DNA of 64,000 nucleotides from a virus: positions 17,862-81,861 of the IMG/VR virus record IMGVR_UViG_3300022752_002570. One strand, written 5' to 3'. This document shows, in pieces, positions 7,301 through 50,900 of the stretch. The translations under genes and the position numbers were made by a program. Each line of letters starts with the position of its first letter. Within the stretch, counting starts at the first letter, position 1. Below the pieces are notes generated by a model. It was not told where the DNA came from. It did not search any database and worked only from the letters and a program-made list of their open reading frames with translations.

Positions 7301-10300
7301 GTAAGAGATCTGAACGCACCCATTCGTAGATATCTATAGTAGCACCAGGAAATAATTTGCCCCAATTATTCTTCCTAAAGATATCATCGCCTTGTTCATA
7401 CCAAATGTACTTTAAGGTGCTGAGATCCCACCATAGTTCACCAACATGATCATCTAGCCAATTATTTTTATCATCAACAATATTACCTGGTCTACCTATA
7501 GAGTAGATGGCAGGATCTGAAGGTGACTTATACTTGATTTCTTGCTCCGCCAATCCAGAAATTTTGCCCTTTAAAGGATCTATAAGTTCAAGATATTCAG
7601 ATACTTCCTCTTTGTAAGAATCAATAAGTGCTATTCTTTCAATACTCGAAATGTCTACTAAATCAGGCTGTTGATGCTTAACTGTCAATATTTCAGGCAT
7701 ATCAAAAACAAATGCCATGCTATTATCTGTTCCTGTAGACAATTTATTAAATGGTGCACCAACATAAGAATATTTGTTTGTTGAAACTACATCAAATCCA
7801 TATTTGCTACCTTCTTGTATGGCAGTATCAACTATTTCATTTCCAGGAACAAAATAAGTTCCTAGTCTTTGATAAGCATAAACTGTTCCAGAATCTGGAA
7901 TTAGATCCTTGAACTTGGTAGTTCCGCCATCGAATGTAGTGATACCAGATTTTGAATTTTCATCAAATTTAATTTCAATTGATCTATTTGTGCCTAAACC
8001 GCTAATTAATAATTTTGTTTCTGCTTTGTTTAATGATAGGCTATGCCCAAATCTTAAATCACTTCCGGCTATAGGGTTGTCTATGGTCTGTAGCAACGAG
8101 TAACGTCTATTCGTTCCTAATTGATAGACCTTAACACTTCCATAACTTGTATCAAGATTTCTATAATCCGGAGCACTAACTACAAGATATTTTCCTGTAT
8201 AAGAAATAATTTGATCTTTACCAAAATTACCACTTGTACCGTAAGGACTAAAAATAGTTTGGTTGTGATATATTCCGTTATTGATAAATCTAAATATCTG
8301 TACCAAACCTGATGAATTTTCGTCTTTGTAACCGGGAGCACTGACTGATATATAAGTTCCTGTACTATTACCGCTTACCTTGTAACCCCATTGATCTCCA
8401 ACCTTTAGTGCTACGCTAGATGTTGATAAAACATTTAGGCCTGACGCAAAAGCACCAATTTGTAATCCATTATTTTTTCTAATTCTGTAGGCAAATACAT
8501 TGCCTGTTGTACCTGTACTAATATTTGTGCTTGTTGAAGAAATCACACTTGCAGTAGACCCTGTACTCATAGCAAAGGTAACTGATGTTGGATATACATA
8601 AAGTTGGTTACCAACACCCTCTGTGCCCGGAGCACTTACAATCAATAAGGTCGATGCACTAGTCGTTGCTTCATTAATATATATTGAATGGCCAAATCTT
8701 ACTTTGTTAGATGAGGTTGAGTATTGTCCTAAAGGATTTGTTAGTACAGCTTCAACTACTTCTGCATCATTATAAGGCCCTATGCTACTGATCTTTACCA
8801 ATCCTTCATCATCAAAAATTCTTGTAGCACTAGTAAAAGTTCCGGCGGTAGAATATACAGTGCTAGTAGTAACACCTACTGTCATATTCCATGTGACTTC
8901 TTCCGGGCTAGCAATAAAGGCATTAGACCCTACCGCCTCTCCAGAGGATGAGGTAACTGTAGCAGAATTGCTAACAAGTATGTCTATAGAAAAAGTTACA
9001 TTAGTAGGTCTAAATTCTAAACTAGATAGTCCTTTGACATTACTTGCTCTAGGTGCTCCTATAATTAGATAATTTTTACCAACATCATAGGCCATTGCAT
9101 AACCAAATTCTGTAGGCTTAGCAGGATTGCAGTATTGAATATCGTAGGTGTTTAATGTATACTCAAACAGTTTAGTGATACTTTGATCTATCCTGTCATA
9201 GACCTTGACCCTTCCATAACTCTGAGTAGCGGTTGTATTAAAATTAGGAACCGCTACTAGGAATTTGTCAGTGTTGTCTGCTGCCCATATTGTGTATCCT
9301 AACTCCTGTGCAGAAGGACTGTCAACAGACCTTATGTACTCAACAGGAAATTGATTGCTTTTTTCATAGACTTGCCATCTATTGTCTATCCCGCTATCAA
9401 CCCATATAAGTTCACCTTCATCGAGATCGAATAACTGTTTTTTATTTCGTAGATCACTAAGTCTTGTAAATCTAGCAGATTCAAAAACAAATAAATTTCC
9501 ATAGGCAAGCTGCTCTTGATTTTGAATACTGGTTAAACTTGACTGAACTGTAAACTGACTTAATTGAGGGACAGATTCAACAATATAAACTCCATTTACC
9601 TGTTCATTGAAATTTACAATAGAAACAATATCACCCACTGATAGATTGTGATGTAAATTAGTACTAAATGTAATATTAGCACCAGGAGCACTTACATATA
9701 CACCTGTTACTTTGGCTTTATTTTTAGAATATCTATAAACAGACCAATCTCCATTTTCTAAAAATCCTGTCCATATAGTCGATCTATTTTGTATCTGATT
9801 GTTCTTTGCTATATCTAGCAGACTATTTTTATTATATGCTGTAGCAGTAACATCATCTAATCTTACATAACCTGCTGTTGAAAGAATTATTCCTGTTTCA
9901 TTATAGGTTCCGCCGGGACTATTTGGAGAATCTAAAAATGTCCCTCCAGGTACAATTGTAGACTCTGGAGTGATCACTGGAAATACATTACTTGATGAAT
10001 AGTCTTGTGGAGTCAATAGTAAATCATTAGGTGTTACATAGTTTTCCAATGGACCGACATCTGTAGGAACCTGATCAGCAAACTTAACAAGATATGGATT
10101 TTCTAAAGTAGTACCTTCTGGGAGAGTAAATTCTATTTCATCATAGTTACTGAATCCACCGTAATATCCTGTTCTAAATGCCCATTCTTCTGTAAATGTA
10201 ACTTCGCCCTTATTAAGATATCTACTGGCCTTTGATAATTTGTCAATGGCATTTTTTGTGCCTTTGTCTTTAATGAATCCTTGATAGAATTTATATTGAC

Positions 10301-13300
10301 TGATAGGGTTTGTGAAAATATTATTGAAGTATGTTCTTGGGGTATAACCGATAAGATGCTGTGCCAATTTTTGTTGTCCAGCGTCAAAGTTATCAATATC
10401 TAAACTGTAAAAGTCTTCAAACTGATTTATTTTATAATCAAAGTTAGGCAATAGATCAGGTACAGGTTTTTCGTTAAGTAAAGACCATTTCTTGAAATCA
10501 AAATTAGTGCTAGGCTCAATTCTTTTGTTTGCCTGATAATACGAACCATTATATCTTACAATGTCCCCTATGGTATAATTCTTTAGCGAACTCCAATCAG
10601 TTATAATTAGATTATCATAAACGAATCCAGGACTGTAAAAATCTCCGTTCCAGTTTTTAGTTCTAAATCCTGAAAGTTTGACCCTTCGTTGTTTATATCC
10701 TGTTTCAATATCATATATAGTATCATTAAAAACAGTAGTATTATTAAAAACTATAGCATGTTCTTTTTGTATAAGAACTAACTTAACAAAAAATATTCCT
10801 TCTTCGGTATTTTTTGTTTGTATTCTACAGGCACTGTCTTCTCTTATTAAACTAAAATTTTCAATAGGGAATGACTTGCCGTCGGCTTTTAATAAGTTGT
10901 ATGCGAACCGTCCTGTCTTAACATCATCAACTATGCTGTTATCGTAAAAATACTTGAACGCATTTGCAAAGGGACTCAGTGTAATGATATTTCCGTCAGC
11001 CCAGTTTTGTGTACACCAAAATAAAAATTCTTTAGCACTGTATTTCCAGTCTATATTTTGTTCTAAGTCTGTAGAATAATCATCAAAAATAAAACCTTCT
11101 TGCTCTAAAAATTTTCCGTAGCCGGTAATAATATCATAAACCTCTTGTATTGTAGGAATTTCAGAACCATAAAAGTATCTAGTTGTTGTAGGGCTAAACT
11201 TTCTAGAAGTTTGAACAGTGACACCGCCTTTTAATGGCAAAGTAGTCAATGAATACCATAAAGATGAATCAAAAGTACTTCCCGGATTATGACCAACTTT
11301 AGATCTATAAAATCTATTATTGTATCTAACTATTTGACCTTCTCTATAAAATCTAGTTGTAGGCGATGCATTTGCTGTAGATGTTTCAGATGCGGTTAAT
11401 TTTAAATTTTTATTTTGAGTAATACCAGACCATTCTGTAAAATCTTCACTTATTCCACCAACTGTTAGCGCAGGAGAAGTCGCTTCTTTAAAAGGTAACA
11501 GTACATCAAAATAAGGCTTTTCTAAATCATAACCCTTTAAAACAAATTTGCCATTTTGTTTCTGAATTATCATACCTGATGCAGAAGCAATTTTTACAGG
11601 ATTACTTACATTGAGAAATACATTGTAATCTTCATAAGGTACAACTAGTCCCGGACTTGTTGAAACTGGATCAACTGAATCAATATTAATCTGTAGTTTT
11701 TCTTTACTGGTAAATCCACCCAGTTTGTAAAATAGGTTGTAATCTAGATTATCTAAATCTTGTCGCAAACTTTGTAGATAATTTTGATTTTTTAATTTTC
11801 CTGCTTCTATAACCATTATACTATAACCAGAACTTTGATTATTATTTTCTCCGTCTAAAATAATTTTACGTGGATCTAAATATAAATCATCTTCTGTGTA
11901 AGTTACTTGATTTTTTATGTTTAAAGCAATCCTACTCGTATCAAATAATGCACTTAGATAATCTGCAGGATTTAATAATAGACTTATAATATTGACAGCG
12001 TATGGCCAGTAACTACTATTCTTCCATGCTGTTTCAGAAGGTGCGCCGTCTCCGTAGATCCATCCTAATATTTTAACATTGTCTGCATTGTTTGAAACTA
12101 CTGCTAGAGGTCCTACTAAATTTCCAGAACTATCAACAGGATTAATTGAAGCAAAATTAGGTCTTGCGTATCTTATATTGTATTCATCAGATTCGGTTGG
12201 ATCAGAAACTTTGCCTTGAACTATAGCGTCAATTAAATCTGCTCTTTTAACATTATCTACCCACTCATAATGAGTATCCCACCAGTTAGGTTTTATTGCA
12301 AATCCCAACATCTCCCAAGGATGACTATGTGGTCTATCAGTATCAAAGAAATAATTGTAAATTCCTCTCCAATAGGACGGAACTTCCTCAGCAAATATCT
12401 TGTCAACAGACTGAGTATAATTATAGGTAAATTCATTACCGTAATCAAATGCTGTATTAGTTTTTATATCTACATTGTTGATACCAGCCCAAAAACTAAA
12501 ATCTACATTAACAATATCTTGTGAAGGTCTAAATAAACTTCTATTCCTAAATGCTCCAGGAATACCTGCTCTAACATCATAAATGTTAGGTTGGTACTGA
12601 ACTTTAATATTATTGTAGATTCTTTTCTCAAATTCTAAAATAATATCGTCTCTGTAGTCACCATAGGCAACTAACAAACTTCCATCGTGTCCTCTTATTA
12701 AATCTACATTTTGATCTATGTAAGTGTCGTCTGTAAATATTTCTGGCTCGTACTTAGGATACAGTCCTAATTTTGTAGGAGTCGGCGGAACAAAACACCC
12801 TAAGGTGTTTGAATATACAAGTATTTCAATTTCATCATTTACAGATAAAGACAAATTAAAAGAAACTTCATCGATATTAATAAAATAATCTGTATCATAA
12901 ATTAATTGATCACCATTTAAGTAAACTAATACTGATTTAAAAGATAACGCTGATAAACTAAAATCTATACCAATTGGATAATCCGTAACAGCAGGATTAG
13001 TTACAGTATAATTTTTAACAGTCTTATTATCTCCATAACCTAGCATATCTGATCTATAATATGCAGAATTAAAATCTTTAGTTAAATTAATTTCTTTTAA
13101 AATTTGATCAACAGCCTCAGCATGTGTTATGTCAGCACTAACAAAAAGTAGTTTTCTTAAAAAGTTGTCTTTAAATTGTAGATAACTATTTCCCACTTTT
13201 CTTAATGCATCAACTACATTATGTTCTGATTTTCCTAAGAAAATAGATGCAAACGACAATGGGTTACTGTTAACAATAATACGTGTACCATATTTTGTAT

Positions 13301-15302
13301 AACCTACAACATCTCTCAAATTAGTGCCATCATAGTTAACATCGGTAATGTCATCTAACATGGTAGTAAGATGATCTCTTAATTCGGATAATGTAAAATC
13401 TTTTACAGGGCCATTAAGAGGATTATTAACCATACTTAAAGGAATTTCATAATATCCGTTTAAATTAGGCTCTTGGTCTGTAAAGATCTTAATTGCCACT
13501 GTATCATTTGCATCTAACTGATTATCTAAAGTTACAGATGACGCGGTAGAAGAGGCAGTAAACGCACTTCTTAATAGTTGATCATTTTTATAAACTGCTA
13601 TTGACGTAATAGATGCTGCCTCTATTGGAACATCTAAAGACTTTATATAAAGAGTACTGGTTGTTTCAGATACAGTTTGTATTTCAACTATTGGCAAATG
13701 ATATTCAGTTTCTTGTTGCCATACATTGAATAATTCACTTGTTTCATAATTTTTTAAATAAGTGTTAGCAACAAGTTTAGTAGAACTCTGATTATTTTCT
13801 TTAATGTTGAAAGAATCTGTCATAAAATAATTTTTAAATAGAAAACTTCCTATGCCCGAACTATTTTGATATTTTAAAGGAAATCCTAGCACAGTATCAC
13901 TGGCACCTATACCCACGTCATAGCCAAATAATCTTGTGCCTAAAAAATTAGACTGATATGTTGCAGTATTTGAATAACTTACGCCATCATTATCAAATAC
14001 ATCAAAAAGTGGAAACTGATTTATTGTTGTGTGCTGTTGTGCTAGTTTCCACGAATCAGATTCTGTATCAAAATACCAACTTGTACCTCCATAGGTATTT
14101 CCAAAATTAATTGACACACCTACACTGCTAGTTGTTAAAGATGTAACTGTAGTTAAAATTATTGTAGATGTTGTTCCTGTCGTATAAGAAACTTGAAAAA
14201 TTTTATTTTTATTATCAGGATCAGTATTAAAAATTAATCTATTTCCTGCTTGTATCAATGTTCCGTCAATATAATATCCATAAGAACCATTTACAGTTGC
14301 AAACGCATCAGCAGTATTATTATCAATTAAATCTACATTTTCTAAACCTACTGTACCGTGATTGTACAATTTAAGATTGGGTCTGAATTCTACAATAGGT
14401 CTTTTTGCACGTTGGTTAAAATCAAACAATACTGGTGTTTGATTAATTCCTGCTGTTTTTTCAATAATGTCTTTATGAAACCACCTATTATATCTGGTCC
14501 ATGAATTATAATCTTTGCTGGCTCTATTAATAGTAATGTATTCAGGTACCAATGGTAAACGTTTTCCACCGTCAAAAGGATATTCATCTAATCCATCTGA
14601 ATCAAATGTCTCGTTGTATACATCTGCTAAGCCTTCATTATTTTCTAAATATCTTATGTCAATTAACCTTATACTGTCACCAACTCCCTCAACATAATAA
14701 GTATTTTCTCTATAGGTGCTAGGAGTTACCTGAGTACCAAATACTAATTTCATACCATTTGATAAAGTGTAATTTATTAAATTTCCTTCACCATCAGTAT
14801 ACTGATATGGTAAGGAGTAGGTTGGATTTCCTACGATTTCAGCATCAACATCTATGCCTAATTCATCAATTACAATAGAATCTGGTCCTTGGGGCAACCA
14901 ATAATAATCAAAATAATTTACAAGTTTATCCCAATCTATATAAGGATCGTAAGAATAAAACTTAGACCTCATCAATTTATCTAAATTATCTGTATTAGAT
15001 TGATAAGATTTTAATTCATTTAATAAATCATCAAAGGCAATAATATCTGTTATTTCACCAGAAATATTTTTAAGTGTTAGTGCAGGTTCTAAAGAATAAT
15101 TCTTTTTTGAGCCTTGAGATTCATCAATATAAACATCAATGGTAGGATCGTAATTTGGCGTTAACTTTGATCCTACGAATCCGTCTATTCTTTCTACTTC
15201 AGGAGTTTGAATAAGATGATCTAATGTACTGGCTAAAAATTTTTTATTTTTTTCAGTCTTTAGATATTCGGGTAAAAAATTAACTGATTTCTTTTTAGCC
15301 AC
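1344..15302 (-). CDS. Giant baseplate wedge/structural protein (4652 aa)
   Basis: Long ORF with GTG start directly downstream of gp6-like gene. N-terminal LPEYLKTEKNKKFL and FYQGFIKDKGTKNAI resemble T4-like wedge proteins. Contains FG-GAP-like repeats, 'VTNPGSGY' repeats and CBM-like aromatic motifs. Confidence 0.75.
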   Translation of the reverse strand: MAKKKSVNFLPEYLKTEKNKKFLASTLDHLIQTPEVERIDGFVGSKLTPNYDPTIDVYIDESQGSKKNYSLEPALTLKNISGEITDIIAFDDLLNELKSYQSNTDNLDKLMRSKFYSYDPYIDWDKLVNYFDYYWLPQGPDSIVIDELGIDVDAEIVGNPTYSLPYQYTDGEGNLINYTLSNGMKLVFGTQVTPSTYRENTYYVEGVGDSIRLIDIRYLENNEGLADVYNETFDSDGLDEYPFDGGKRLPLVPEYITINRASKDYNSWTRYNRWFHKDIIEKTAGINQTPVLFDFNQRAKRPIVEFRPNLKLYNHGTVGLENVDLIDNNTADAFATVNGSYGYYIDGTLIQAGNRLIFNTDPDNKNKIFQVSYTTGTTSTIILTTVTSLTTSSVGVSINFGNTYGGTSWYFDTESDSWKLAQQHTTINQFPLFDVFDNDGVSYSNTATYQSNFLGTRLFGYDVGIGASDTVLGFPLKYQNSSGIGSFLFKNYFMTDSFNIKENNQSSTKLVANTYLKNYETSELFNVWQQETEYHLPIVEIQTVSETTSTLYIKSLDVPIEAASITSIAVYKNDQLLRSAFTASSTASSVTLDNQLDANDTVAIKIFTDQEPNLNGYYEIPLSMVNNPLNGPVKDFTLSELRDHLTTMLDDITDVNYDGTNLRDVVGYTKYGTRIIVNSNPLSFASIFLGKSEHNVVDALRKVGNSYLQFKDNFLRKLLFVSADITHAEAVDQILKEINLTKDFNSAYYRSDMLGYGDNKTVKNYTVTNPAVTDYPIGIDFSLSALSFKSVLVYLNGDQLIYDTDYFINIDEVSFNLSLSVNDEIEILVYSNTLGCFVPPTPTKLGLYPKYEPEIFTDDTYIDQNVDLIRGHDGSLLVAYGDYRDDIILEFEKRIYNNIKVQYQPNIYDVRAGIPGAFRNRSLFRPSQDIVNVDFSFWAGINNVDIKTNTAFDYGNEFTYNYTQSVDKIFAEEVPSYWRGIYNYFFDTDRPHSHPWEMLGFAIKPNWWDTHYEWVDNVKRADLIDAIVQGKVSDPTESDEYNIRYARPNFASINPVDSSGNLVGPLAVVSNNADNVKILGWIYGDGAPSETAWKNSSYWPYAVNIISLLLNPADYLSALFDTSRIALNIKNQVTYTEDDLYLDPRKIILDGENNNQSSGYSIMVIEAGKLKNQNYLQSLRQDLDNLDYNLFYKLGGFTSKEKLQINIDSVDPVSTSPGLVVPYEDYNVFLNVSNPVKIASASGMIIQKQNGKFVLKGYDLEKPYFDVLLPFKEATSPALTVGGISEDFTEWSGITQNKNLKLTASETSTANASPTTRFYREGQIVRYNNRFYRSKVGHNPGSTFDSSLWYSLTTLPLKGGVTVQTSRKFSPTTTRYFYGSEIPTIQEVYDIITGYGKFLEQEGFIFDDYSTDLEQNIDWKYSAKEFLFWCTQNWADGNIITLSPFANAFKYFYDNSIVDDVKTGRFAYNLLKADGKSFPIENFSLIREDSACRIQTKNTEEGIFFVKLVLIQKEHAIVFNNTTVFNDTIYDIETGYKQRRVKLSGFRTKNWNGDFYSPGFVYDNLIITDWSSLKNYTIGDIVRYNGSYYQANKRIEPSTNFDFKKWSLLNEKPVPDLLPNFDYKINQFEDFYSLDIDNFDAGQQKLAQHLIGYTPRTYFNNIFTNPISQYKFYQGFIKDKGTKNAIDKLSKASRYLNKGEVTFTEEWAFRTGYYGGFSNYDEIEFTLPEGTTLENPYLVKFADQVPTDVGPLENYVTPNDLLLTPQDYSSSNVFPVITPESTIVPGGTFLDSPNSPGGTYNETGIILSTAGYVRLDDVTATAYNKNSLLDIAKNNQIQNRSTIWTGFLENGDWSVYRYSKNKAKVTGVYVSAPGANITFSTNLHHNLSVGDIVSIVNFNEQVNGVYIVESVPQLSQFTVQSSLTSIQNQEQLAYGNLFVFESARFTRLSDLRNKKQLFDLDEGELIWVDSGIDNRWQVYEKSNQFPVEYIRSVDSPSAQELGYTIWAADNTDKFLVAVPNFNTTATQSYGRVKVYDRIDQSITKLFEYTLNTYDIQYCNPAKPTEFGYAMAYDVGKNYLIIGAPRASNVKGLSSLEFRPTNVTFSIDILVSNSATVTSSSGEAVGSNAFIASPEEVTWNMTVGVTTSTVYSTAGTFTSATRIFDDEGLVKISSIGPYNDAEVVEAVLTNPLGQYSTSSNKVRFGHSIYINEATTSASTLLIVSAPGTEGVGNQLYVYPTSVTFAMSTGSTASVISSTSTNISTGTTGNVFAYRIRKNNGLQIGAFASGLNVLSTSSVALKVGDQWGYKVSGNSTGTYISVSAPGYKDENSSGLVQIFRFINNGIYHNQTIFSPYGTSGNFGKDQIISYTGKYLVVSAPDYRNLDTSYGSVKVYQLGTNRRYSLLQTIDNPIAGSDLRFGHSLSLNKAETKLLISGLGTNRSIEIKFDENSKSGITTFDGGTTKFKDLIPDSGTVYAYQRLGTYFVPGNEIVDTAIQEGSKYGFDVVSTNKYSYVGAPFNKLSTGTDNSMAFVFDMPEILTVKHQQPDLVDISSIERIALIDSYKEEVSEYLELIDPLKGKISGLAEQEIKYKSPSDPAIYSIGRPGNIVDDKNNWLDDHVGELWWDLSTLKYIWYEQGDDIFRKNNWGKLFPGATIDIYEWVRSDLLPSAWAAQADTNQGTSNGISGQPKYPANDVVSVKQIFNAVTGSFENVYYFWVKNKLLLPDVKNRRLSSYQVANLIADPQANGVKFVQVLSSSSVAFTNVQPLLVDNRISANMSFTYDNPIPRHTEWLLLNEGNQNSVPNALLEKKLFDSLLGEDTSGNPVPDPILSFRNRYGLGIRPQQTLFKDRVEALRNIVVFSNDVLSKEQIVGKYELDTLLLKDEIPSESEGRYDILIDSILELDSIDTSNIRQAVISCTVNNGKIDNVNVIDSGKGYIFAPVVTIKDTNTSAELVSVLDESGKIIRVDITNAGTEYATAPLLEVRPFTAILTSNPDDGGRWTVHEYNNASETWFKVSTQKFRTEDYWDYIDWSASNYNQYKIFSYVVGIPSDIALYNDTTDGTYIKINNNGNGKYVIVEKVSDNGNFTKYFNSVYVQDGTIKILDKVWNDAEAADNYDEAGLADNLYDQSNTIELRNILTALKNDLFVGDLKVNWNLLFFVAVRYALTEQKLLDWAFKTSFVNVVTDLGVLDQRPVYKLDNEQYFEDYIKEIKPYHTKIRNYNSKYNTIEFYDGNITDFDLPTVYDQTLNEYKPITILSTTSATVFTLTNTLTNVYPWKYWTDNYTYYVKEILVADGGQNYTQRPVVELITVNGDYGTGATAEAFIRAGKVYKVIVTNPGSGYVFAPVAQLTGGGAGVIPAALSVVMDNDTIRKNKIGLRFDRISKGVEITDTYVTDKFDCTGEQNSFVLTWLANPDKSTITPTIDGKLVFATDYKLEYYKEDYEGLYTKEFTRLTLLKSVPLAGQTFKVIYKKNIKLFNAVDRIEQYYSPTPGMLADNLTDLVSGLDYPLTTYEGMMFDQTAPWGTTTYDSAPWDDIVSELVTVKLLQDIDTTATTITVNTTTGITTGQSIIIGNTSTIKIRPETIVTEIDSSTNVITISSPVYDLKTVLSTDTSIGSLIEFTTKKQFRGDIKVGDVVLINGIITGGYNGQYVVSTTTNNKFYTTATQVLSSTTTQLSTPATARVLSILSTISSITSVLDKVVQSSTGTSTLQIFTYALYSQIATATVSFSSGSPSWYIASSSGTVQRAIVNISGLNPSVRTTATVTILGNTDIDFWKYNLSPDQLTVNLDGGQYTNGIKTSALGTTATDNIVQGGGWIKPVGQYYGYKLTTNVPGSTASNYADAIDRYYLRYLYRHADQVGLDYWVQTIVDGNNTLESVEANIKVSAESTQINASFNPDGLINPFRSYAPEEFVPGDTKDSLSITVYTRPERISPIMFNGVIYNIAGQETTATLQLVTDEIPAGLIVTFNGKPLSRVDNYPLPFDLDNQVYFLEGNRITIGAQTVGGRIGYSYVTASSDTGLDSQYVYVNSTSTQTATLISDMPFNGVGSVFVQLNGNQQIGPYSVGTGLGYVLEPVGNVNKRAKITVNEIAAGRNEVTAWFFRNRIDTFNRIKETYYNISTSTVSIPLDPVPFNLEPISTQVIVEKLTGNPYSPRTRLLPPDTSYYKITGNQLTFDINNNKSGAAYNNQNVKVYVNGYEIRPGFDFVVNAATETITIIQNVVAFNDVIAIMDLTDYDYVIINRILYLKNAVTSGAIKVTSFTDHDGMGLRTERFDRTHNNEYTLDMPVINENYIWVTANDKALIAGYDFYVKPDLQTIVIGNDVPMTTGSKVVIVSVNPANYDNTVIAYRLFKDIFDRQSFRRVSNFFSTKLAHPLNYYDDSIHVEDGSMLFSPNPSKNIPGVVFIDGERIEYFVKNGNELTQLRRGTFGTGTPWYSAEGTLVFDQSVKQNVYTEETVNIQNIPTTYLTLYNISTVTNTSSFSINTTTHAGSGISLLTTSTHGYVPAYVDQVDVYYGGRKLRKTELKLHYNERAYDTTSSVYYNNETTSSYDVLPPEYTIEVDTSQTLLLNISEEIVPGTQITVIQRKGRVWDISTASILVSTSTQAKFLRKGPAQLPSSYYYGGNLELTDETNAPLTEDDGDLLQGL

Positions 15303-29891: not shown

Positions 29892-30186
29892 AGAATTAGA
29901 AAAATACAATGAAATGTATCGCAAAATGATTGATCATTTAGTGACATTGCATAATGCAAATATTACTTTCCAAAAGTTTCAAGGTAGAGATCGTGCTAAC
30001 GATGTTAAACGACAGTTTAGAGGCATTATGAAATTAAGTCGCGAATTGATAAAGCAATGCAGCAAAGTCAGTCGAGAGGGTTCTGATCGAAGAAAACTTA
30101 TAAGTACTCAAAGGAAAGAAGCCAAACGACTAAGGCAACAACAAAGACAAAAAAATGTGGCTGTATCAGGGGGAAACAATCAATGA
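29881..30186 (+). CDS. Hypothetical basic helical protein (101 aa)
   Basis: ORF overlaps the gp46 stop and the GIY-YIG start, so it is operonic; helical, Arg/Lys-rich C-half. Confidence 0.6.
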   Translation: MLTEELEKYNEMYRKMIDHLVTLHNANITFQKFQGRDRANDVKRQFRGIMKLSRELIKQCSKVSREGSDRRKLISTQRKEAKRLRQQQRQKNVAVSGGNNQ

Positions 30187-30586
30187 ACTACCAGAAACTT
30201 GCGTAGGATTCGTGTATATTATAACTAATACAGTAACAGGCAAGATGTACATAGGCAAAAAACTTAGTAAATTTTCAAAAACAACTTATAAAACTGTTAA
30301 ATTAAAAAACGGCACTAAGAAAAAGAAACGAATTAAATCTAAAATATCCTCAGACTGGCAGACATATTACGGCTCAAACGATCATCTCAATCAAGACGTA
30401 CTAAATTTAGGCACAGATAAATTTGTAAGAGAAATATTATACTTTTGTAATTCAAAGGCAGAATGTTCCTATATTGAGGCACGTGAACAATTTACTCGCA
30501 AAGTACTAGAATCAGACGAATACTATAACGGACAGATATCTGTTCGTGTCCATGGCTCACACATCAAAGGCAAACTAAACGGTTAA
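30155..30586 (+). CDS. Stand-alone GIY-YIG endonuclease (143 aa)
   Basis: GFVYIITNTVTGKMYIGKK, YYGS, catalytic-type E (YIEAREQ) and YYN motifs; Lys-rich insertion; no appended DNA-binding domain. Confidence 0.85.
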   Translation: MWLYQGETINELPETCVGFVYIITNTVTGKMYIGKKLSKFSKTTYKTVKLKNGTKKKKRIKSKISSDWQTYYGSNDHLNQDVLNLGTDKFVREILYFCNSKAECSYIEAREQFTRKVLESDEYYNGQISVRVHGSHIKGKLNG

Positions 30587-31000
30587 CGGCTAGCGCAGGC
30601 TAATATCATGCGCCCTAGACCTGGATCTCAGATCGCAGGGACGGAATGCTCACCGCCGTAGTGAGAACTCAACCACTACCCGAAAGGATGACGATCACTT
30701 AACTGCTGTGATTTGGTTGTTTGAAGTAGAAGGAGCAAAAAGACGCAGAAGTGATTCTGCACGTTCATATGATGAGGTAGTGTTCGTTATATGAGCCGCC
30801 GTTGTAATAAAGCCTGAACGAGTAGGTACCGGACAACCGCCTACGCTAAACTAGTTCTAACACTATGTGACTATGCTACTCAGATGATGCATACCTTTGC
30901 CCGCCCTGGGCAAAGAGTGACCACTTAATCTAGATGATACTAAAAGACAAAAAATGCTTCGAGTCTCGTAGACGAAGAAGCAAACGAACGTAGTTCGTTA
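30584..31000 (+). ncRNA. Candidate large structured non-coding RNA, family not recognised
   Basis: ORF-free, ~46% GC by hand count against AT-rich spacers elsewhere. At least 10 stems, GNRA loops, and a 14-bp stem with four G-U pairs that form only on the + strand. Confidence 0.65.
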
Positions 31001-31001
31001 C

Positions 31002-31026
31002 TAAATATTGATTATTCCGGAATAAT
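31002..31026 (+). promoter_or_regulatory. Late promoter TAAATA plus perfect 16-bp palindrome ATTATTCCGGAATAAT
   Basis: TAAATA 31002-07; palindrome 31011-26 ends 2 nt before ATG 31029. Confidence 0.55.
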
Positions 31027-31028
31027 TT

Positions 31029-32339
31029 ATGCGATTACATCAAGCACTAGGTCAACAGACTATCTTTGAAAGTATAGGAGGAACTGATCCCTACTTCAAA
31101 ACATGGCAACGAGACATACATCCCGTATTATGTGAAGTTGCTCTAAACCCTGATCAGATAAATCAATTATTCAAATCTATAGAGAAGGGTGGAGGAAGAT
31201 CTCTTCTAGGTAAAGCCAAAGATGCTATAAGTGGTGCTACAAATAAAATTAGTGATGTATGGTTTAATAAGTTTGGAGGAATGTTGCAGAGCAGTGGACC
31301 TGTTCAAGCATTTGATCAAAAATTTGAAGAAATTAAATCCAGTATTGCAGCGAAGAATCCTAAATTGGCCGCAAAGTTAGCCAAATATGGAGAGTTTGCT
31401 AAGAACAATCCTAAATTACATAAGTTTTTATTAGCCATTGGAGGATCTGTAGCCGCTGCTGTAGGTGTTACTGTTGCGGGTGGAGTAGGCGCAGGTGCTC
31501 TAGCAGTGGGCACAGGTGCCGGTGTTGCTACTGGTATCATTAACATTGCTGATCGTTTATTACAAGGGCAAAAAGCATCAACTGCTATTGGACGTGGAGC
31601 CACTACAGGACTAGTAACAGGAATAACTGCTGCTGCCGCTACTAAAATTCTTAGTGGTGTGGCCAACAGTTTTAAGGCAGAATATGTTAATACAGTTCGA
31701 GGTGAGCGATTAATGAACGGAACATTTGACATCAATGGTCAGTGGACTTTTGTTACTGGCAGACCGGAAGATGTTAGGGCTCTCGGACAAGCCATGGATG
31801 CAGAAAACTATCAGTTATTCTACAGTCTTGTAGAAAAAATGAGGTCACCTGAATATGTAAAAGGTTTAGAAGCATCTCAAGAAATTATAAAACAGGCCAC
31901 TCAAAACTATCAATCCACGGCAGGTGTAATTAAAACTCTAGCACAGGCTGCAACAGCAGCCGCAGGTGGTGCAGCCAGTGCGGCTACAAATCAACAACCT
32001 AAAGAAAGTTTATCAGAAAATAAAATTTATGAATTATTTGGCATAACCGGTAACAAGATAGATGCTAGTAAATTAGAAAAGGCATGGAAGAAGGCAGGAA
32101 GTCCTACGGACAGTGATGAGATTGCGAAAATCTTACAGGGTGCTGGTGTGGATCCTACAATTATTTCACAGGCATTTAAGGAAATAGGAGCACCTACACC
32201 TCAAGGCCGTGTAGAACCAACACTAGGAACAGACACCAATACAACAGCCCAGCCAATAAATACAAAAGATATTGTAGCCAGGATAAAAAAATTACCTCCT
32301 GATCAACAAAAAATCTTAATACAACTATTAAAAGCATAG
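31029..32339 (+). CDS. Putative internal virion/ejection protein with Gly/Ala hydrophobic segments
   Basis: Late promoter; I/L-x-E motifs (IFES, LSEN, IYEL); long hydrophobic stretch FLLAIGGSVAAAVGVTVAGGVGAGALAVG. Confidence 0.5.
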   Translation: MRLHQALGQQTIFESIGGTDPYFKTWQRDIHPVLCEVALNPDQINQLFKSIEKGGGRSLLGKAKDAISGATNKISDVWFNKFGGMLQSSGPVQAFDQKFEEIKSSIAAKNPKLAAKLAKYGEFAKNNPKLHKFLLAIGGSVAAAVGVTVAGGVGAGALAVGTGAGVATGIINIADRLLQGQKASTAIGRGATTGLVTGITAAAATKILSGVANSFKAEYVNTVRGERLMNGTFDINGQWTFVTGRPEDVRALGQAMDAENYQLFYSLVEKMRSPEYVKGLEASQEIIKQATQNYQSTAGVIKTLAQAATAAAGGAASAATNQQPKESLSENKIYELFGITGNKIDASKLEKAWKKAGSPTDSDEIAKILQGAGVDPTIISQAFKEIGAPTPQGRVEPTLGTDTNTTAQPINTKDIVARIKKLPPDQQKILIQLLKA

Positions 32340-44947: not shown

Positions 44948-47900
44948 ATGGCCAAGACATATTTTTCAAATACACCACCATCATATACTGGTACACCCAT
45001 ATCCGCTACACTATCAAATGGAAGCACGGTTCTAGACCTACCCGGTGATTACGACATTAATGTCAGCAAAGGTTATACAAAAATAACCACAGATAATCTT
45101 TATCACGAAGTACAGAATAATTTTGAAGGTAATATAGGCGGTGATTATTTATTAGATGTTGGCGATAATTATACTGCTAATATTGTAGGTGACTACACAA
45201 CAGAAATTACCGGTGAAACACTTATTGAAGGTGTTGGCAATGTAAAAATTTGGACCCCAAGAATAGAACTCGGAACCGTGGACGGGTCTCAAGATATTGC
45301 TGTGTACTCTAAGGTTATCACCGACATACTTCCTAAGGTAGACGATGATGTTGCATTAGGAAGTGAAGCTCTTAGTTGGTCATATCTATGGACGCAAGAA
45401 TTAGATGTTAAAGATGAAACAAATGTAGGAAATCCTTTTGGCTATGCCTACGACCCCAACAATAGATTTGGCATGGAGTGGGGGCAGACAGAACAAGAGT
45501 CAATCGATTCGAGAAAAGAAGCTTCTGCGTATTTTGCGGGCGGGGTCGGTATTGAAAAAGATTTAAACGTAGGTGGATTTATCTACGGTCGAGTATTAAT
45601 TTCAGTAACTACTACAAACATTGTTATAACTGCAACCAATAATAATCTTGAATACTACCCAATTTTTGCATTGAATACAGGAAATCAATTTTTGTATGTA
45701 GATAACCAAGGAATTATTAACGGATTTAGATATAATCCATTTTTAGGACGTTTAAGAACTGACAGAATTATAGTTGTAGAAACTGACGTTGCAGATGCAT
45801 CTCAAGGAGCACTTAGAGTTGAAGGAGGTGCTAGCATTGGGGATAACTTGTGGGTAGCAAACGTTAATGCTGCTACCTCAGCCGATGGTTCAATTAGAAC
45901 AGATGGCGGACTCAGTGTAGAAAAAAATCTCTGGGTAAATGATGATGCTTATGTAGAAAACGCAGTAGAAGCAGATGAAGTCGTTCCTCATGCTAACGAT
46001 GATGGTAATATAGGCACAACCAGTACATTCTGGCACGAAGCATACATCAATAATATCTATACAAAACTTATTCAAAGCACCACAGGCACTATACAGATTA
46101 AACCTAAAGATCCTGTAACTGAAATAATTGGTGATATTAGAGTACGAGGAACAAATCCCATAGGTACCGCACCTGTTGTTACAAATACACTATATGTAAC
46201 AGTGGACGGAAACGATACAAATGATGGTAGAGCCATGGATGCTAGTCGTGCATGTCGTACCATCGGCGGTGCAATGCGTAGTCCATACTATCAACCAGGA
46301 ACTCAAATCCTTGTTAGTGCCGGTTTTTATCTTGAAGACAATCCTTTAAGGATGAAACCATATACCTCAGTTAGAGGAAGCGACATTCGTACAACGTTCA
46401 TTGAACCTATTAACAAAACACAAGATTTATTTCATGTAGAGAGCGGATGTTATATTAATTATGTTACGTTTTTAAATGGACGAAGTGGTCTATTAGAAGG
46501 AGATTATGCTCCTGGATTTAATAGAGGTGCTTACGCTACAGCCTTCCCCCCATTGAGCGGCGATGATAGAATTGATCTGTTTCATAGTCCATACATTCAG
46601 AACTGTACCAATCAAAGTGGACCTTGGCTTAGAGATGGTACTATGTTTGTACCAAATCAAACAGTTCAAATACCAAAAGCAGTGGGAACTGGTACATGGG
46701 CAGCAAATACAACTACCATTATTTTAACAGTGTCAACAGGTACACTAGCACCTGGTATGAGCATAAATGCAGGTCAACAGAACTCAGGATTCTTTGACGC
46801 AAGAACATTAATGTTGGCTAACAAGCCGTTCATGCAAGAACAGGTTGTTGCCTATGTGAATCAAACTTTTAACACAGGTACATTTACCTATAATGCCACA
46901 AAATGCAAAAGAGATATTGGTTTAATTGTTGATTCTATAGCAATAGACATGTTATATGACAGCGAAAGCGATAGTAGATTCGCTGGCTTACAATATTATG
47001 CTCAAGGATCGGTAAGTTTTCCTGGTGAATTAACAACAACTACACAGTCTCTAACATATCTAGGCACATTAGCGGCATCAACTGCATCAAGTGCCTCTGG
47101 GGATCCTAATCTAGGCTTGATTGTAACGGCCCTGTTTAGCACAATTACAAACATTTTAACAACCAGTTCTGCATTAATCGGTTTAAGCGAACAAATTGAA
47201 GCACATCCAAATGGTCTGCCTTCTACAACATCTACATATCAAGATGCATACGATGCGCTGTTAGCAAATAAATCTAGTTTTGCATCAGCAGTTACAACTT
47301 GGATTAACACTAATCATCCTGCGCATTCCTACAGCACTGCGACCTGTGAAAGAGATGTTGGATACATAATTGACAGTGTAGCATTTGATCTGTTACATGG
47401 AGGTACAAAGCAAAGTATCAAGTCTGGAATCTATTATTATAACTATGTTAGTACAGCAACAACTACCAATGATATTCCACAGACCTTTGCTGCCTATAAC
47501 TACATCAAGAGATTAATTCCCTATATTGTAACAGGTGAGGCTGTATCTACATCTACACTGTATCAAAATACTGTAACCCAGGTCACAGCGGTATCTATCG
47601 CTGGCAATTACGAAGCAGGTCAACTAAAAGATAAAGTAGATGTTATCACAGGAATAATTAGAAACGGTCCTAACAATGTTGTTAGAATTCCAATGGATCT
47701 AAGACAGGTGCCTAGTGAAGAAGCAGAAAACGCTTATAATGCCATGCAGGCCAACAAGGCATTCTTACAAGCAGAAGTCACTGCATTTATAGATGCCACC
47801 GCAGGGACTTTTGAATATTCAAGAGAAAAATGTTATAGAGATGTTGGTATTCTTGTAGAAAACATTGCCTATGATATAACTTTTGGTGGAAATGAAAAAA

Positions 47901-50900
47901 GTGTTGAAAGTGGACTTGGATATTATGACGGAGTAATAAGTCTCATTCAGGGACAAGAAACTCAAACAATTAGTGCAATTGATTACCTAAACGATCTATG
48001 TCAACAGGTTATCACAAATACCACAGTCACTGATTTATTAAGTGGCACAGGTACCGCAGTGCAGGTTATCAATACCGCACTGATTGGTGGTGCCGTCGCT
48101 AGCGATAGCTTGCAAAATGCCTGGAATATTGTTACAGATATTATTGCAAATGGTCCAAGTGTGGCACCTGCAATCTATAATAGCCCAGGACCTGATGCCG
48201 CTTTTGTCAGTGCTGAAATATTGATGCAGGCAAATCGTGCATTTTTACAAGAAGATACAATTAACTATGTTAATAATCTTGTACAAACATTCCCCTACAG
48301 CGAACGTAAATGCCGTAGAGATACTAAACTAATTGTAGACAGTATTGCACAAGACCTATTATATCCTACTACTAATATGAGCCAGAGCACGTTCGCTGGA
48401 CTACAATATTGGAATCAAGATAATTATACTGGTGATATAGAAGCACAATTACAACCAACTATTGAAGCAATGGAGTACCTAAAAACTCTCAGCAGTAAGG
48501 TAATCCTAAATACCACACCTGCTGATGATTTTAGAATTCCGTATCAATTTACTCTAACCCAAGTAACTACAATTACTCAGGCAACTTCTTACGAAGTAGG
48601 TATAATTGAAAATAATTTTGATATTATCTTAGAAATTCTAGGTGGCACGAAATTTGGTTGGACCGATAGAATAGTACCTAATAGCACAGCTAGCAATATC
48701 TTAAGCACTTTAAATGCCTATAAGATTCTGCAACAAAATAAACCGTATTTGGCCGCTGAGGTTATAGGATTTGTCAATGCTGTACATCCAGACTTTACCT
48801 ATGATGAATCTAAATGTTATAGGGACGTTGGATTAATTACAGATGCAATTTGCTTTGACCTAAAGCACAGTGGCAATAAACAGAGTATTCAGGCAGGACT
48901 TTATTACTATGGGTTTAGTACATCAACAAGTACTATCCACGGCCAAGAAACTCAGACTATTGCGGCCTATACAAGATTAAGTAATATTGTAGACGAAATT
49001 TTACTAAACCAAACAGTGGCTATAACAACTGGCAATACCGTTTTACAGGTTATATCAACTTCGACCGCTACTGTTGCTGAAGTGTTAGAAGTTCAAAGAG
49101 CGATTACAACAATAACCAATATTATTCAAAATGGTCCTTCAGTAGCAGGACCTCCAAGCAACATCTCTTTAACTGCAACAACTACTGCCAGTGTCATAAA
49201 TGCCTATAATTTATTAAAAGCAAATAGAGATTTTATTGCTGAAGAAATAATTGCCTACGTAGATTTTTATTTTAATGTGGGTTCGTTTAATTATAATGAA
49301 GAAAAATGTTATAGAGATGTGGGTCTAATTATTGATGCTGTCAGTCAAGATATTCTATTAGGTGGAAATCAAAAATCTTTAGAAGCAGGTTTATCTTATT
49401 GGAGTGCTGGCTACAACTCTGTAGCAGGTCAAGAAACTACAACAACTATGGCTCTAAATTATGTTAGAGACCAAGTTTTAGATATCATTAAAAATACCCC
49501 TGTTACCGCTCAAACACAGACTAATCTAACTCAGACTATTAATACATTCTTCCAATATGGTGAAGAATACGGTCCTCAAGAAGCGGTTCAACGTAACTTT
49601 AATATTATTACTAATATTATAGAAAATGGTCCAAGCGTGGCACCTCCTGTTTATGCAGGCGGCGGATTATTCAGTCTAACAGGACTTAATGGATCTGACG
49701 TCAAAATTGCGCCTACAGTGGTTAGTGTCACAACAATTACCACAGGTAGCACATATTTGATAGGCCTAAGCACTGCCACAGTTGGATTTGGTGTTAATAG
49801 TACATTATACATTGGTGATACAGAAATATTTCCCTACAGAGACAGTGAAGTTGATTCGTTAAGTTTTGAATATACAGGCGCAACTTCAACTTGGGCTATA
49901 CGTAAAATAGATCCTGTTGGTTCTATGGGCGGTAGCCTTGTAGACGGTGCTGTAATCAGCGATCGTTCTCCTATTCAATCATTTGTTTATGACGCATTTA
50001 CACAGGTCAATCAAGGTGGTAGGGGTGTTCACATTGTAAATGATGGTTATGCTCAGCTAGTTTCTGTGTTTACTATTTTCTGTTCAACTGGGGTAGAAGT
50101 TGAAAGAGGTGGTATTGCTAGTATTGTTAACAGTAATGCTAACTTTGGTAATATCTGTTTACAGGCCAAGGGTTATGGTAAGCGCAAATTCAGCGGACAT
50201 ATTTACAATCCTACCTTTAAAGCATACCCAGAAAGTCCAGATCCTTCATTGGCTGTGACATTCCCAACAAGTGAATACCTAGATCAATATTACCCAACAG
50301 GGTATTGGCCTAATGAATCACGAGTACGAGTGTTTATTCCAGACCCTGAAGATCGTCCTCACATTTCTTTAGTTATGGAAGTTGTTCCTCCTGAACAGGT
50401 AAGAGACTTTACAGGTGCTTTAATTCCACAGGTTAATCAACTCGGATTTCCTGGCTTCTTAAACGCAACAATTAATACTTCAACACTTTCAACAGGTAGC
50501 ATCACAATAACTGGCGTAGATACAGAAGGTGTTGCTGTGGGTAATGCAGTCTATATTAGAGATCAGTTTGGAAGTTCTACTGGCAGTAATGGTCTATTGT
50601 ATGCTGCGACCGGTACTGTGGTTACAAGAGTAGATTATCAAAAAATCACTATTAGCAAAGGTTTACCGAGCGGAGGTGGAGATCCTACTATTGATGAATT
50701 CTTTGATATCTATATTTGTGGAAATGCCTACTATACTGTTTTAGGTAGTGAAGCAGGAGACAATCCTAAGTATAACAGAATAGGTGCTGAAATTCCTTTA
50801 GGGATTAATATTTTAAGCACAGCATCAACAGGTATATTGACATCAGGTACTACACAACTAGCGGCGCATATTAGTGCAATAGGACGTTTACAGACCACAG

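What the first reader, a model, noticed from the sequence alone, without database searches (positions are those of the whole stretch)
30867..30938. Two GTGAC-N10-AGATGAT units at exactly 50-nt spacing, resembling a bipartite guide loop
Seen: GTGAC(30867-71)-tatgctactc-AGATGAT(30882-88), then the 8-bp hairpin CTTTGCCC/GGGCAAAG, then GTGAC(30917-21)-cacttaatct-AGATGAT(30932-38). The flanks are constant; the two 10-mers differ and do not pair with each other. Knowledge: UGA/GAUGA motifs flanking two short unpaired segments joined by a hairpin is the layout of box C/D guide RNAs, TIGR tigRNAs and IS110 bridge-RNA loops. Inference: a symmetric internal loop carrying two guide segments, or tandem binding sites for a dimeric protein. 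Caveats: only two units, the boxes are not canonical C/D, and no Nop-domain protein is recognisable in the window.
Basis: partly seen in the sequence, partly recalled or inferred. Interest (0 to 1): 0.72.

Follow-up and report, generated by a model that had tools for sequence, protein, structure and literature searches.

The report
Twin-box domain of a phage RNA
The two look-alike units are real and belong to a large, knotted non-coding RNA of freshwater T4-like phages, where they show the same 7-letter word twice, always changed in step, for a reader that is still unknown.

Summary
The box C/D, TIGR or bridge-RNA reading is not supported.

The 72 nt lie in a 442-nt gene-free stretch (30587-31028). 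Its first 135 nt are the orphan Rfam motif Polynucleobacter-1 (117.9 bits). The rest is an uncatalogued pseudoknotted domain: 41 pairs, 95.0% paired, covariation 0.486 against 0.170.

In homologs the supposed constant flank AGATGAT is the variable part. Seven versions occur, and unit 1 and unit 2 carry the same one in 162 of 162 complete phage elements and 121 of 121 aligned rows. At least 10 changes on supported branches were shared by both units. The N10 segments are not hypervariable, and the spacing is 47-58 nt.

From -6 to +10 the two units differ mostly by transitions. Both could therefore pair with one partner, 5'-U[anti-box]GGGU-3'. No such partner was found in cis, in a complete relative phage genome or in Polynucleobacter genomes.

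The RNA also sits in Polynucleobacter genomic islands without the nuclease; there the boxes are identical in 17 of 22 loci.

Best guess, at low confidence: two displayed copies of one base-pairing address. Earlier follow-ups in this scan reported the same twin-box RNA on other DNA.

The parts
30155..30586 (+). 143-aa minimal GIY-YIG nuclease gene that ends 1 nt before the RNA
   Evidence: Pfam SegE_GIY-YIG PF19835, 8.6e-32. A homolog sits in the same place in 137 of 141 phage loci with a full upstream flank.
30588..30722 (+). 5' domain, the Rfam Polynucleobacter-1 motif (RF01718)
   Evidence: cmscan 117.9 bits against a gathering score of 37; model positions 1-141.
30763..30796 (+). Hairpin whose loop (30777-30783) forms a 7-bp pseudoknot with 30860-30866
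   Evidence: Stem: 13 of 13 pairs with changes on both sides, 92.2% paired. Pseudoknot: 7 of 7 pairs covary, 98.2% paired.
30802..30857 (+). Second pseudoknot (30802-30805 with 30833-30836) and the hairpin 30816-30819/30854-30857 plus 30822-30826/30840-30844, which carries a conserved 13-nt loop
   Evidence: helices 3-5: 96.7%, 100% and 85.6% paired; 3 pairs in each helix have changes on both sides.
30860..30866 (+). 3' strand of the pseudoknot; it ends directly before unit 1
   Evidence: helix 2. Compensatory variants are visible, for example AGCAG/CUGCU and AUUGUAU/AUACAAU.
30867..30893 (+). Unit 1: GUGAC, then stem UAUGC (30872-30876) / GCAUA (30889-30893), with a 12-nt loop that holds ACUC (30878-30881) and box 1 AGAUGAU (30882-30888)
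   Evidence: The hairpin is in both the MFE and the centroid fold of the window. A unit-1 hairpin is supported across homologs above control. ACUC is invariant in 118 of 118.
30895..30915 (+). Central 8-bp hairpin between the units
   Evidence: 99.0% paired. Pair 30898/30912 takes the forms UA 68, AU 32, CG 7, GC 3.
30917..30938 (+). Unit 2: GUGAC, N6, AUCU (30928-30931), box 2 AGAUGAU (30932-30938). Predicted unpaired in the window.
   Evidence: Box 2 equals box 1 in 162 of 162 complete phage elements.
30956..30999 (+). Two 3' hairpins that close the conserved element
   Evidence: RNAalifold. Covarying pairs 30985/30997, 30988/30994, 30983/30999 and 30957/30980.
31001..31008 (+). ACTAAATA; most homologs have TATAAATA here. 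Late-promoter-like box for the downstream gene, so the RNA is not that gene's leader.
   Evidence: Alignment. The T4 late-promoter consensus TATAAATA is recalled, not tested.
31029..32339 (+). Downstream 436-aa gene, a variable slot in related phages
   Evidence: Only 79 of 135 downstream ORFs are homologous to it.

Best explanation
SHOWN. The two units are the 'twin boxes' of the uncatalogued 3' domain of a roughly 420-nt, multiply pseudoknotted non-coding RNA. Its 5' third is the Rfam motif Polynucleobacter-1. The RNA is made from the + strand, because G-U pairs occur in the helices. It lies behind a minimal GIY-YIG gene in freshwater T4-like phages. Each unit reads A-YYY-[7-nt box]-R. Box 1 sits in a hairpin loop directly after a pseudoknot, and box 2 sits in a single-stranded stretch after a GC-rich hairpin.

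The 7-nt box differs between lineages but is the same in both units. The fixed differences between the units (CUC against UCU, G against A) are all transitions.

INFERRED, about one chance in three. The two units are two displayed copies of one base-pairing address. Each could form the same 13-16-bp duplex with a strand 5'-..U[anti-box]GGGU..-3', with strict Watson-Crick pairing in the 7-nt core and G-U wobble in the flanks. The RNA would then hold two copies of one complementary RNA or single-stranded DNA sequence, as a bridge or a sponge, or offer one partner two alternative docking places.

The partner is not encoded next to the RNA and has not been identified. The consequence of binding is unknown.

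The confidence given (0.35) is for the inferred mechanism. That the units are the twin boxes of this RNA I hold at about 0.9.
For: The RNA is real. The 442-nt gap is conserved in 59 of 66 loci found through the downstream protein. It scores 117.9 bits to RF01718. Across 41 pairs, 95.0% are paired, 31 have changes on both sides, and covariation is 0.486 against 0.170, with 0 of 500 shuffles as high. Slid controls are 36-45% paired.

The boxes are identical. This holds in 56 of 56 loci and in 162 of 162 complete phage elements, which carry 7 box types. It also holds in 121 of 121 aligned rows, with a minimum of 34 box changes on a tree built without the box columns. For letter 1, 10 of 10 independent pairs on supported branches change together (p 0.002); for letter 5, 5 of 5 do.

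The units are wobble-equivalent. In 106 unique unit pairs, positions -6 to +10 are mostly identical or differ by a transition. The exception is -5. Positions -3 to -1 are CUC against UCU in 104. Position +8 is G against A in 95. Positions -7, -8 and +11 onward are mostly transversions.

The box is an arbitrary word, not a motif. Bacterial copies carry AGCGAAA, AUCAAAA, AGAGAAA, AACAAAA, GGAGAAA, GGCGAAA and AGCGAUG between the same ACUC and AUCU flanks.

No third covarying site exists inside the RNA.

No column of the GIY-YIG protein tracks the box; the highest normalised MI is 0.18 for letter 1.

The phage loci and the bacterial islands share no neighbouring protein.

Box 1 is in a loop.
Against: No partner was found in any of the following searches:
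- The held 81.9-kb contig has only one extra 11-nt match, antisense inside a gene.
- A complete 354,680-bp relative genome has 1 extra match against 1+1 in the reversed-pattern control.
- Within +-4 kb of 147 loci, on the same strand, WC matches are 46 against 47.0 in control, and matches with G-U are 828 against 844.7.
- Five Polynucleobacter genomes carrying the RNA show 7-11 matches each against 11-29 in controls, and the recurring hits are not orthologous.

A partner that is unlinked to the RNA would have had to change together with both boxes at least 10 times, which is demanding.

One genome (G120) holds two islands with different boxes. A single host-encoded partner cannot serve both.

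Identity is not absolute. In 5 of 22 bacterial loci the boxes differ: G/A at letter 1 in 2, AA/UC in 2, A/U at letter 7 in 1.

Position -5 is T against A, a transversion, in 21-25 sequences that include the window.

Expression evidence is one 167-nt metatranscriptome contig of a relative, covering only 30517-30681.
Confidence: 0.35

Rival explanations
1. The units are tandem binding sites for two copies, or a dimer, of a sequence-specific RNA-binding protein. Each unit (GUGAC ... A-YYY-box-R) binds one protomer.
For: There are two equivalent units with conserved GUGAC and A-YYY frames. The unit differences are of the pyrimidine-for-pyrimidine and purine-for-purine kind, which a protein reading base classes could also tolerate. 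No nucleic-acid partner was found.
Against: At least 14 different 7-mers occur, 7 in phages and 7 in bacteria. All are matched within an element, which would need a protein whose specificity changed each time. The only conserved phage neighbour does not covary with the box. No protein is shared between the phage and island contexts. If the protein merely tolerated the variation, unequal boxes should be common; they are 0 of 162 in phages.
Confidence: 0.2
2. The boxes have a purely intramolecular architectural role. They contact each other or another part of the same RNA through non-canonical or wobble pairing. Candidates are the G/U-rich strand at 30710-30722 and the quasi-symmetric helix UCxyAU/AUCUxy.
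For: The G/U-rich strand can pair with most phage boxes (68 of 118). The candidate twin helix is 87.7% paired against 17-55% in slid controls. The RNA is rich in tertiary pairings.
Against: The G/U-rich strand pairs equally well with foreign boxes (66.8 in control). It therefore cannot enforce identity, and it already lies in a Polynucleobacter-1 stem. The twin helix has 0 compensatory changes, and its C:x pair is unpaired in 59 of 121. It is also lost with the bacterial boxes. No third column covaries with the box letters.
Confidence: 0.12
3. The RNA is a guide or bridge for the small DNA enzymes encoded near it: the minimal GIY-YIG nuclease in phages and a catalytic-domain-only tyrosine recombinase in Polynucleobacter islands. 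The twin boxes would name the same 7-bp core in two DNA sites.
For: The GIY-YIG gene abuts the RNA in 137 of 141 loci. In all 13 fetched island regions a 188- to 212-aa ORF starts about 0.5-1.4 kb downstream. The one scanned, from L239, is covered by Pfam Phage_integrase over residues 6-176 of 188. A 7-nt identical core recalls the overlap region that tyrosine recombinases need to be identical in both partner sites; this is recalled, not tested.
Against: The two enzyme classes are unrelated. The nuclease is absent from the islands. The islands belong to one related family, so their synteny counts as one observation. No box or anti-box enrichment is seen within +-4 kb or +-10 kb. The nuclease sequence does not covary with the box. 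No hypervariable guide-like segment exists. An earlier follow-up's bold reading was put at 2 in 100 by a later check in this scan's notes.
Confidence: 0.05
4. The units act at the DNA level: direct repeats for recombination or replication slippage, iteron-like protein sites, or promoter elements.
For: They are direct repeats bracketing an inverted repeat. The phage boxes resemble a -10 hexamer (GATAAT, AATAAT, CATAAT).
Against: The surrounding sequence evolves as an RNA with compensatory pairs. The GTGAC-to-box distance is 10 nt, not 17. The bacterial boxes are not -10-like. The spacing varies from 47 to 72 nt, so there is no fixed helical phase. A 50-bp segment is too short for recombinase synapsis; this point is recalled. 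No single-box (deleted) form occurs among the 162 elements.
Confidence: 0.05
5. The units form a box C/D-like or TIGR-like dual-guide RNA.
For: In this one phage the units contain UGA and GAUGA around two 10-nt stretches.
Against: See the membership tests. The boxes are not conserved, the order is wrong, the N10 segments are not variable spacers, and no Nop protein is found.
Confidence: 0.01

Closest known systems
Polynucleobacter-1 RNA motif (Rfam RF01718; Weinberg et al. 2010, PMC2864571; seen here only as one table row via paper reading 'find')
   Same: The 5' 135 nt of this element match the model end to end at 117.9 bits. The habitat is the same: the paper's table lists Burkholderiales and fresh water/estuary.
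   Different: The catalogued motif stops at 30722. The finding lies about 145 nt further 3', in a conserved domain with pseudoknots and twin boxes that no Rfam model covers. The function of the motif is unknown. The paper's table marks it 'y' in the second column after the motif name and '?' in the third; I did not see the header, and from recall these are cis-regulatory and riboswitch. Here a late-promoter-like box lies between the RNA and the next gene.
IS110 bridge RNA (recalled)
   Same: One structured RNA displays two loops that each specify a nucleic-acid partner. The two loops share a short identical core.
   Different: No IS110 recombinase is present. No complement to the element's ends or to a target was found. 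Here the whole 7-nt word is identical, not a 2-nt core. The RNA also occurs with unrelated neighbours.
Archaeal box C/D sRNA and TIGR tigRNA (recalled)
   Same: The layout is two-fold, with two short stretches around a central hairpin.
   Different: C and D boxes are not conserved and their order is reversed. The N10 segments are conserved and partly paired. There is no array and no Nop-domain protein.
Kissing-loop or seed 'address' systems: ColE1 RNA I/II, phi29 pRNA loops, sRNA seeds and sponge RNAs (recalled)
   Same: A short, arbitrary, lineage-specific word of about 7 nt is displayed in a loop, and its exact sequence matters.
   Different: In those systems the complementary word is known and usually linked. 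Here the word is displayed twice in direct repeat and no complement has been found.

Membership tests
Polynucleobacter-1 (RF01718) | Score at or above the Rfam gathering threshold of 37 bits | tested here: met
   117.9 bits at 30588-30722 on the + strand, with the full model matched.
Polynucleobacter-1 (RF01718) | The finding's own 72 nt are covered by the model | tested here: not met
   The model ends at 30722. No Rfam family matches 30723-31028 even at E<=10.
Extended twin-box RNA (defined in this scan, not in print) | A Polynucleobacter-1 domain is followed by a pseudoknotted domain with two A-YYY-[7 nt] units that carry the same 7-mer | tested here: met
   The window has AGAUGAU twice.
Box C/D sRNA | Conserved box C (RUGAUGA) and box D (CUGA), in the order C-guide-D'...C'-guide-D, forming k-turns | tested here: not met
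   GAUGA becomes AAUAA or GAUAA in 93 of 118. The order here is GUGAC-N10-box. The best C/D model scores 13 bits against a gathering score of 45.
Box C/D sRNA / TIGR-Tas | A Nop-domain partner protein in the genome | tested here: not met
   PF01798 gives 0 of 5 phage records, including one 100%-complete relative. The control finds it in 4 archaea. The window's own record is only 23% complete.
TIGR tigRNA | An array of repeats with hypervariable spacer pairs | tested here: not met
   There are only two units. The N10 segments fall into a few conserved classes.
IS110 bridge RNA | An adjacent DEDD/IS110 recombinase | tested here: not met
   PF01548 gives 0 of 5 phage records. The neighbours are a GIY-YIG gene and a late gene.
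IS110 bridge RNA | Loop guides complementary to donor ends and to a target | tested here: not met
   No complement of the box is enriched within +-4 kb or in a complete relative genome.
Translational bypass site (T4 gene 60 type, recalled) | Matched take-off and landing sites inside one reading frame | tested here: not met
   No ORF of 40 aa or more crosses the region. Indels between the units are not multiples of three, and the hairpin evolves by compensatory changes.

The most novel reading that the evidence does not exclude
The twin boxes are a programmable 7-nt address carried in duplicate. With it the RNA would bring together two copies of the same DNA or RNA sequence for catalytic-domain-only DNA enzymes encoded beside it: the GIY-YIG nuclease in phages and a minimal tyrosine recombinase in Polynucleobacter islands. 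That would be an RNA-specified homing or recombination system unrelated to CRISPR, OMEGA, TIGR or IS110.
Probability: 0.04. Interest if true: 0.9.

Novelty: new variant of a known kind. Interest (0 to 1): 0.6.

Why it matters
Polynucleobacter-1 has stood in Rfam since 2010 as a 141-nt orphan. The only paper in the held library that names it is the discovery paper.

The evidence here shows it is the head of an RNA about three times larger. It also occurs in integrative islands of Polynucleobacter, in 17 of 151 genomes above the family cut-off.

The twin boxes are an unusual signal. They are a direct repeat that co-varies by identity, not by complementarity, and standard covariation tools do not look for that. 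Identity of this kind points to an unseen reader.

It would also settle whether small nucleases or recombinases can borrow specificity from such an RNA.

Tried and rejected
(1) Partner searches.
- The complement of box plus flank in the held contig gave one extra hit, antisense inside a gene.
- The same search in 5 phage records, including a complete genome, gave no more hits than the reversed-pattern control.
- On the same strand within +-4 kb of 147 loci there is no enrichment. Inside the element, only a G/U-rich strand pairs, and it pairs with any box.
- In 5 Polynucleobacter genomes there is no enrichment, and the recurring TTTCGCTAAAT and TTTCGCTGGRT sites are not orthologous.
- Targets for the two N10 segments in the contig are only scattered 1-mismatch hits, none adjacent to another.

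(2) blastn of the 442 nt against 50,697 phage records found no match.

(3) Excision or deletion between the boxes, in RNA or DNA. Logan contigs of 4 runs showed no joint from box 1 to box 2. The joints that were seen replace variable parts in relatives. Contigs cannot show rare forms, so this says nothing either way. The regions without RNA cover in run X20 are likewise uninformative.

(4) k-turn or C/D reading: rejected; see the membership tests.

(5) Sigma-70 promoter reading of GTGAC-N10-GATGAT: rejected because the spacer is 10 nt and the bacterial boxes are not -10-like. The scan finds nothing at the units.

(6) Shine-Dalgarno or start mimic, CsrA GGA site, and tRNA anticodon-loop mimic were considered by eye. 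They were dropped because GGA and AUG are not conserved, U33 and R37 do not fit, and the bacterial boxes have none of these features.

(7) Small ORF starting at the AUG that ends box 1: its length and stop position are not conserved.

(8) Quasi-symmetric helix between the units, suggested by RNAalifold: no compensatory support.

(9) Covariation between the GIY-YIG protein and the box: none.

(10) A hairpin around box 2 in phages: no better than control (34 of 114 against 31.8%).

(11) One search returned nothing because my distance threshold was too strict. It was repeated.

(12) The supplementary files of Weinberg 2010 may describe the gene context of Polynucleobacter-1.

Full report
OBSERVATION. 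GTGAC lies at 30867-71, a 10-mer follows, and AGATGAT lies at 30882-88. Then come the hairpin CTTTGCCC/GGGCAAAG at 30895-30915, GTGAC at 30917-21, a different 10-mer, and AGATGAT at 30932-38. The composite pattern occurs twice in 64 kb and nowhere else even with one mismatch. The expectation is 0.23 matches, and 3 of 100 shuffles reach two.

CONTEXT. The window is part of an 81.9-kb IMG/VR record that CheckV rates as 23% complete. The record is a T4-like phage: a gp55-like late sigma factor, gp47/gp46-like SbcCD subunits, a baseplate hub and a T4-type portal surround the site.

The finding lies in the 442-nt gap 30587-31028, between a 143-aa GIY-YIG gene (SegE_GIY-YIG, 8.6e-32) and a 436-aa gene. 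No tRNA is present in the window. The first 135 nt of the gap match the Rfam family Polynucleobacter-1 at 117.9 bits against a threshold of 37. Nothing in Rfam matches the remaining 300 nt, even at E<=10.

The whole gap folds better than its shuffles, with z = -3.1.

HOMOLOGS. Searching viral contigs with the downstream protein gave 66 loci. In 59 of them the 442 nt are recognisable by blastn.

The GIY-YIG gene ends at the RNA in 137 of 141 loci with a full upstream flank. By eye, two more hold the domain inside a longer ORF call. The downstream gene is variable: 79 of 135 are homologous to the window's. In most homologs a TATAAATA box follows the last hairpin. I recall this as the T4 late-promoter consensus. 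If so, the RNA is not the leader of the next gene.

IT IS AN RNA. On an alignment of 121 distinct sequences, six helices around the units hold 41 pairs. 95.0% of cells are paired, against 76.7% in shuffles. 31 pairs have changes on both sides. The covariation score is 0.486 against 0.170, with 0 of 500 shuffles as high. Slid controls are 36-45% paired.

G-U pairs occur in these helices, which places the RNA on the + strand. A 7-bp pseudoknot (30777-83 with 30860-66) ends one base before unit 1, and all 7 of its pairs covary. The central hairpin is 99.0% paired.

WHAT THE UNITS ARE. It comes out the other way round. The 3' flank is the variable part, with seven versions in phages: AGATAAT 64, GGATAAT 33, GAATAAT 25, GGATGAT 14, AGATGAT 13, GCATAAT 12 and GAATGAT 1.

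Unit 1 and unit 2 carry the same version in all 162 complete elements. The other 15 regex matches are 13 unrelated sequences that lack the hairpin and 2 elements cut by a contig end. The pattern used to retrieve the sequences fixed only the constant letters of unit 2. It did not fix these three variable letters or unit 1.

On a tree built without the box columns, the boxes change at least 34 times. For letter 1, 10 of 10 independent pairs on supported branches change in both units (p 0.002). For letter 5, 5 of 5 do. The boxes are not especially fast-evolving: the closest pairs of elements with different boxes are at least 23% diverged overall.

The N10 segments fall into a few classes. The 5' part of unit 1 pairs with the linker behind box 1 more often than with linkers taken from other sequences (>=5 bp in 91 of 114 against 51%). 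In the window this gives the hairpin UAUGC/GCAUA, with box 1 in a 12-nt loop. Spacing between the boxes is 47-58 nt.

With both units anchored on the box, positions -6 to +10 are mostly identical or differ by a transition: CUC against UCU in 104 of 106, and G against A at +8 in 95. The main exception is -5, where the pair is T against A in 21 sequences of 106, including the window; +9 and +10 also hold 8 and 13 transversions. Outside this span the differences are mostly transversions.

C and U both pair with G, and G and A both pair with U. Both units could therefore form the same duplex with one strand, 5'-..U[anti-box]GGGU..-3'. This fits a common nucleic-acid partner better than it fits a protein. 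It is an inference, not an observation.

THE PARTNER WAS NOT FOUND.
- No other column of the element covaries with the box letters.
- No same-strand complement is enriched within +-4 kb of 147 loci: WC 46 against 47.0, with G-U 828 against 844.7.
- A complete 354,680-bp relative genome has one extra match, the same as the reversed-pattern control.
- The held contig has one extra match, antisense in a gene.
- No column of the GIY-YIG protein tracks the box.

BACTERIAL COPIES. RF01718 matches 18 of 151 sampled Polynucleobacter genomes, 17 of them above the cut-off. Of 150 further sampled genomes of the same order, 3 match above the cut-off (G209, G162, G223); the centre genome G006 matches again, and G031 below it. 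Several of the matches lie on contigs of about 2 Mb.

These copies have the 3' domain too, with the same ACUC and AUCU frames but quite different boxes: AGCGAAA, AUCAAAA, AGAGAAA, AACAAAA, GGAGAAA, GGCGAAA and AGCGAUG. The boxes are equal in 17 of 22 loci where both units can be read. The five exceptions differ by G/A at letter 1 (2 loci), AA/UC (2 loci) and A/U at letter 7 (1 locus). One 9.2-kb contig of a Polynucleobacter MAG carries the phage type.

The bacterial neighbours are a divergent DUF6641 gene, a variable ORF, a 188-aa tyrosine recombinase that is essentially the catalytic domain alone, a clamp-loader-like ATPase and a 423-aa integrase-like protein. None of these has a relative in the phage loci I hold. 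The RNA is therefore the only shared part.

One genome holds two islands with different boxes, which argues against a single host-encoded partner. Searches of five such genomes for the predicted partner gave no enrichment and no orthologous site.

KNOWN FAMILIES.
- Box C/D: GAUGA is lost in 93 of 118, the order of elements is wrong, and the best C/D model scores 13 bits against 45.
- TIGR and C/D partner: no Nop domain in 5 phage records, including the complete one.
- IS110 bridge RNA: no IS110 transposase and no complement to ends or target.
- Gene-60-type bypass: no reading frame crosses the region.
- A helix between the two units proposed by RNAalifold has no compensatory support.

EXPRESSION. 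All public runs that hold the stretch are kept as contigs. One metatranscriptome contig of a relative (167 nt, 90-95% alike) runs from the end of the GIY-YIG gene into the Polynucleobacter-1 domain. This is a weak hint of co-transcription and no more.

VERDICT. It is one instance of the twin-box domain of an extended Polynucleobacter-1 RNA, which earlier follow-ups of this scan reported on other DNA. I reached the same description independently and checked it here.

The only paper in the held library that names the motif is its 2010 discovery paper. I saw one table row of that paper. A further search for a GIY-YIG-associated structured RNA listed nothing on it; I read listings only.

The most likely working is two displayed copies of one base-pairing address for an unidentified partner. 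I put this at about one in three. A dimeric protein reader comes next, and the guide or bridge reading is at a few percent.

Noticed in passing
window 31029-31060 and the downstream ORFs of L070-L186: The genes behind the RNA are very diverse, but many start with a similar N-terminus (MKIxEIIxE, MRINELLxE). From memory this resembles the capsid-targeting leader of T4 internal proteins. The slot may be a hypervariable locus for injected proteins.
   Followed up: no
window 31001-31008: The window has ACTAAATA where most homologs have TATAAATA, directly after the last hairpin of the RNA. This looks like a late promoter for the downstream gene.
   Followed up: partly
window 30679 and 30689: Inside the Polynucleobacter-1 domain two positions swap C/U against U/C (TC 76, CT 42 of 118). 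This is a non-Watson-Crick covariation that the Rfam structure does not explain.
   Followed up: no
window 30709-30722: The G/U-rich strand AUUUGGUUGUUU at the end of the Polynucleobacter-1 domain can pair, with wobble, with almost any phage box: 68 of 118 with the element's own box against 66.8 with foreign boxes.
   Followed up: partly
window 30484-30512: A weak sigma-70-like promoter match (TGAACA-17-TAGAAT, 9 of 12) lies inside the 3' end of the GIY-YIG gene, about 75 nt before the RNA. Its conservation was not checked.
   Followed up: no
L234-L246 (Polynucleobacter chromosomes): The bacterial copies sit in a recurring island. Its order is a DUF6641 gene (divergent), the RNA, a variable ORF, a 188-aa catalytic-domain-only tyrosine recombinase, two unknown genes, a clamp-loader-like ATPase and a 423-aa integrase-like gene. 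Two genomes carry two such islands.
   Followed up: partly
window 1344-15302 (-), 44948-51712 (+), 55196-59974 (+): Very large ORFs of 4652, 2254 and 1592 aa occur in this phage fragment.
   Followed up: no
L005-L013, about 97 nt after box 2: In one clade a third copy of the box (GAATAAT) lies in the hairpin just before the start codon of the downstream gene. This is not so in the window or in other clades.
   Followed up: partly
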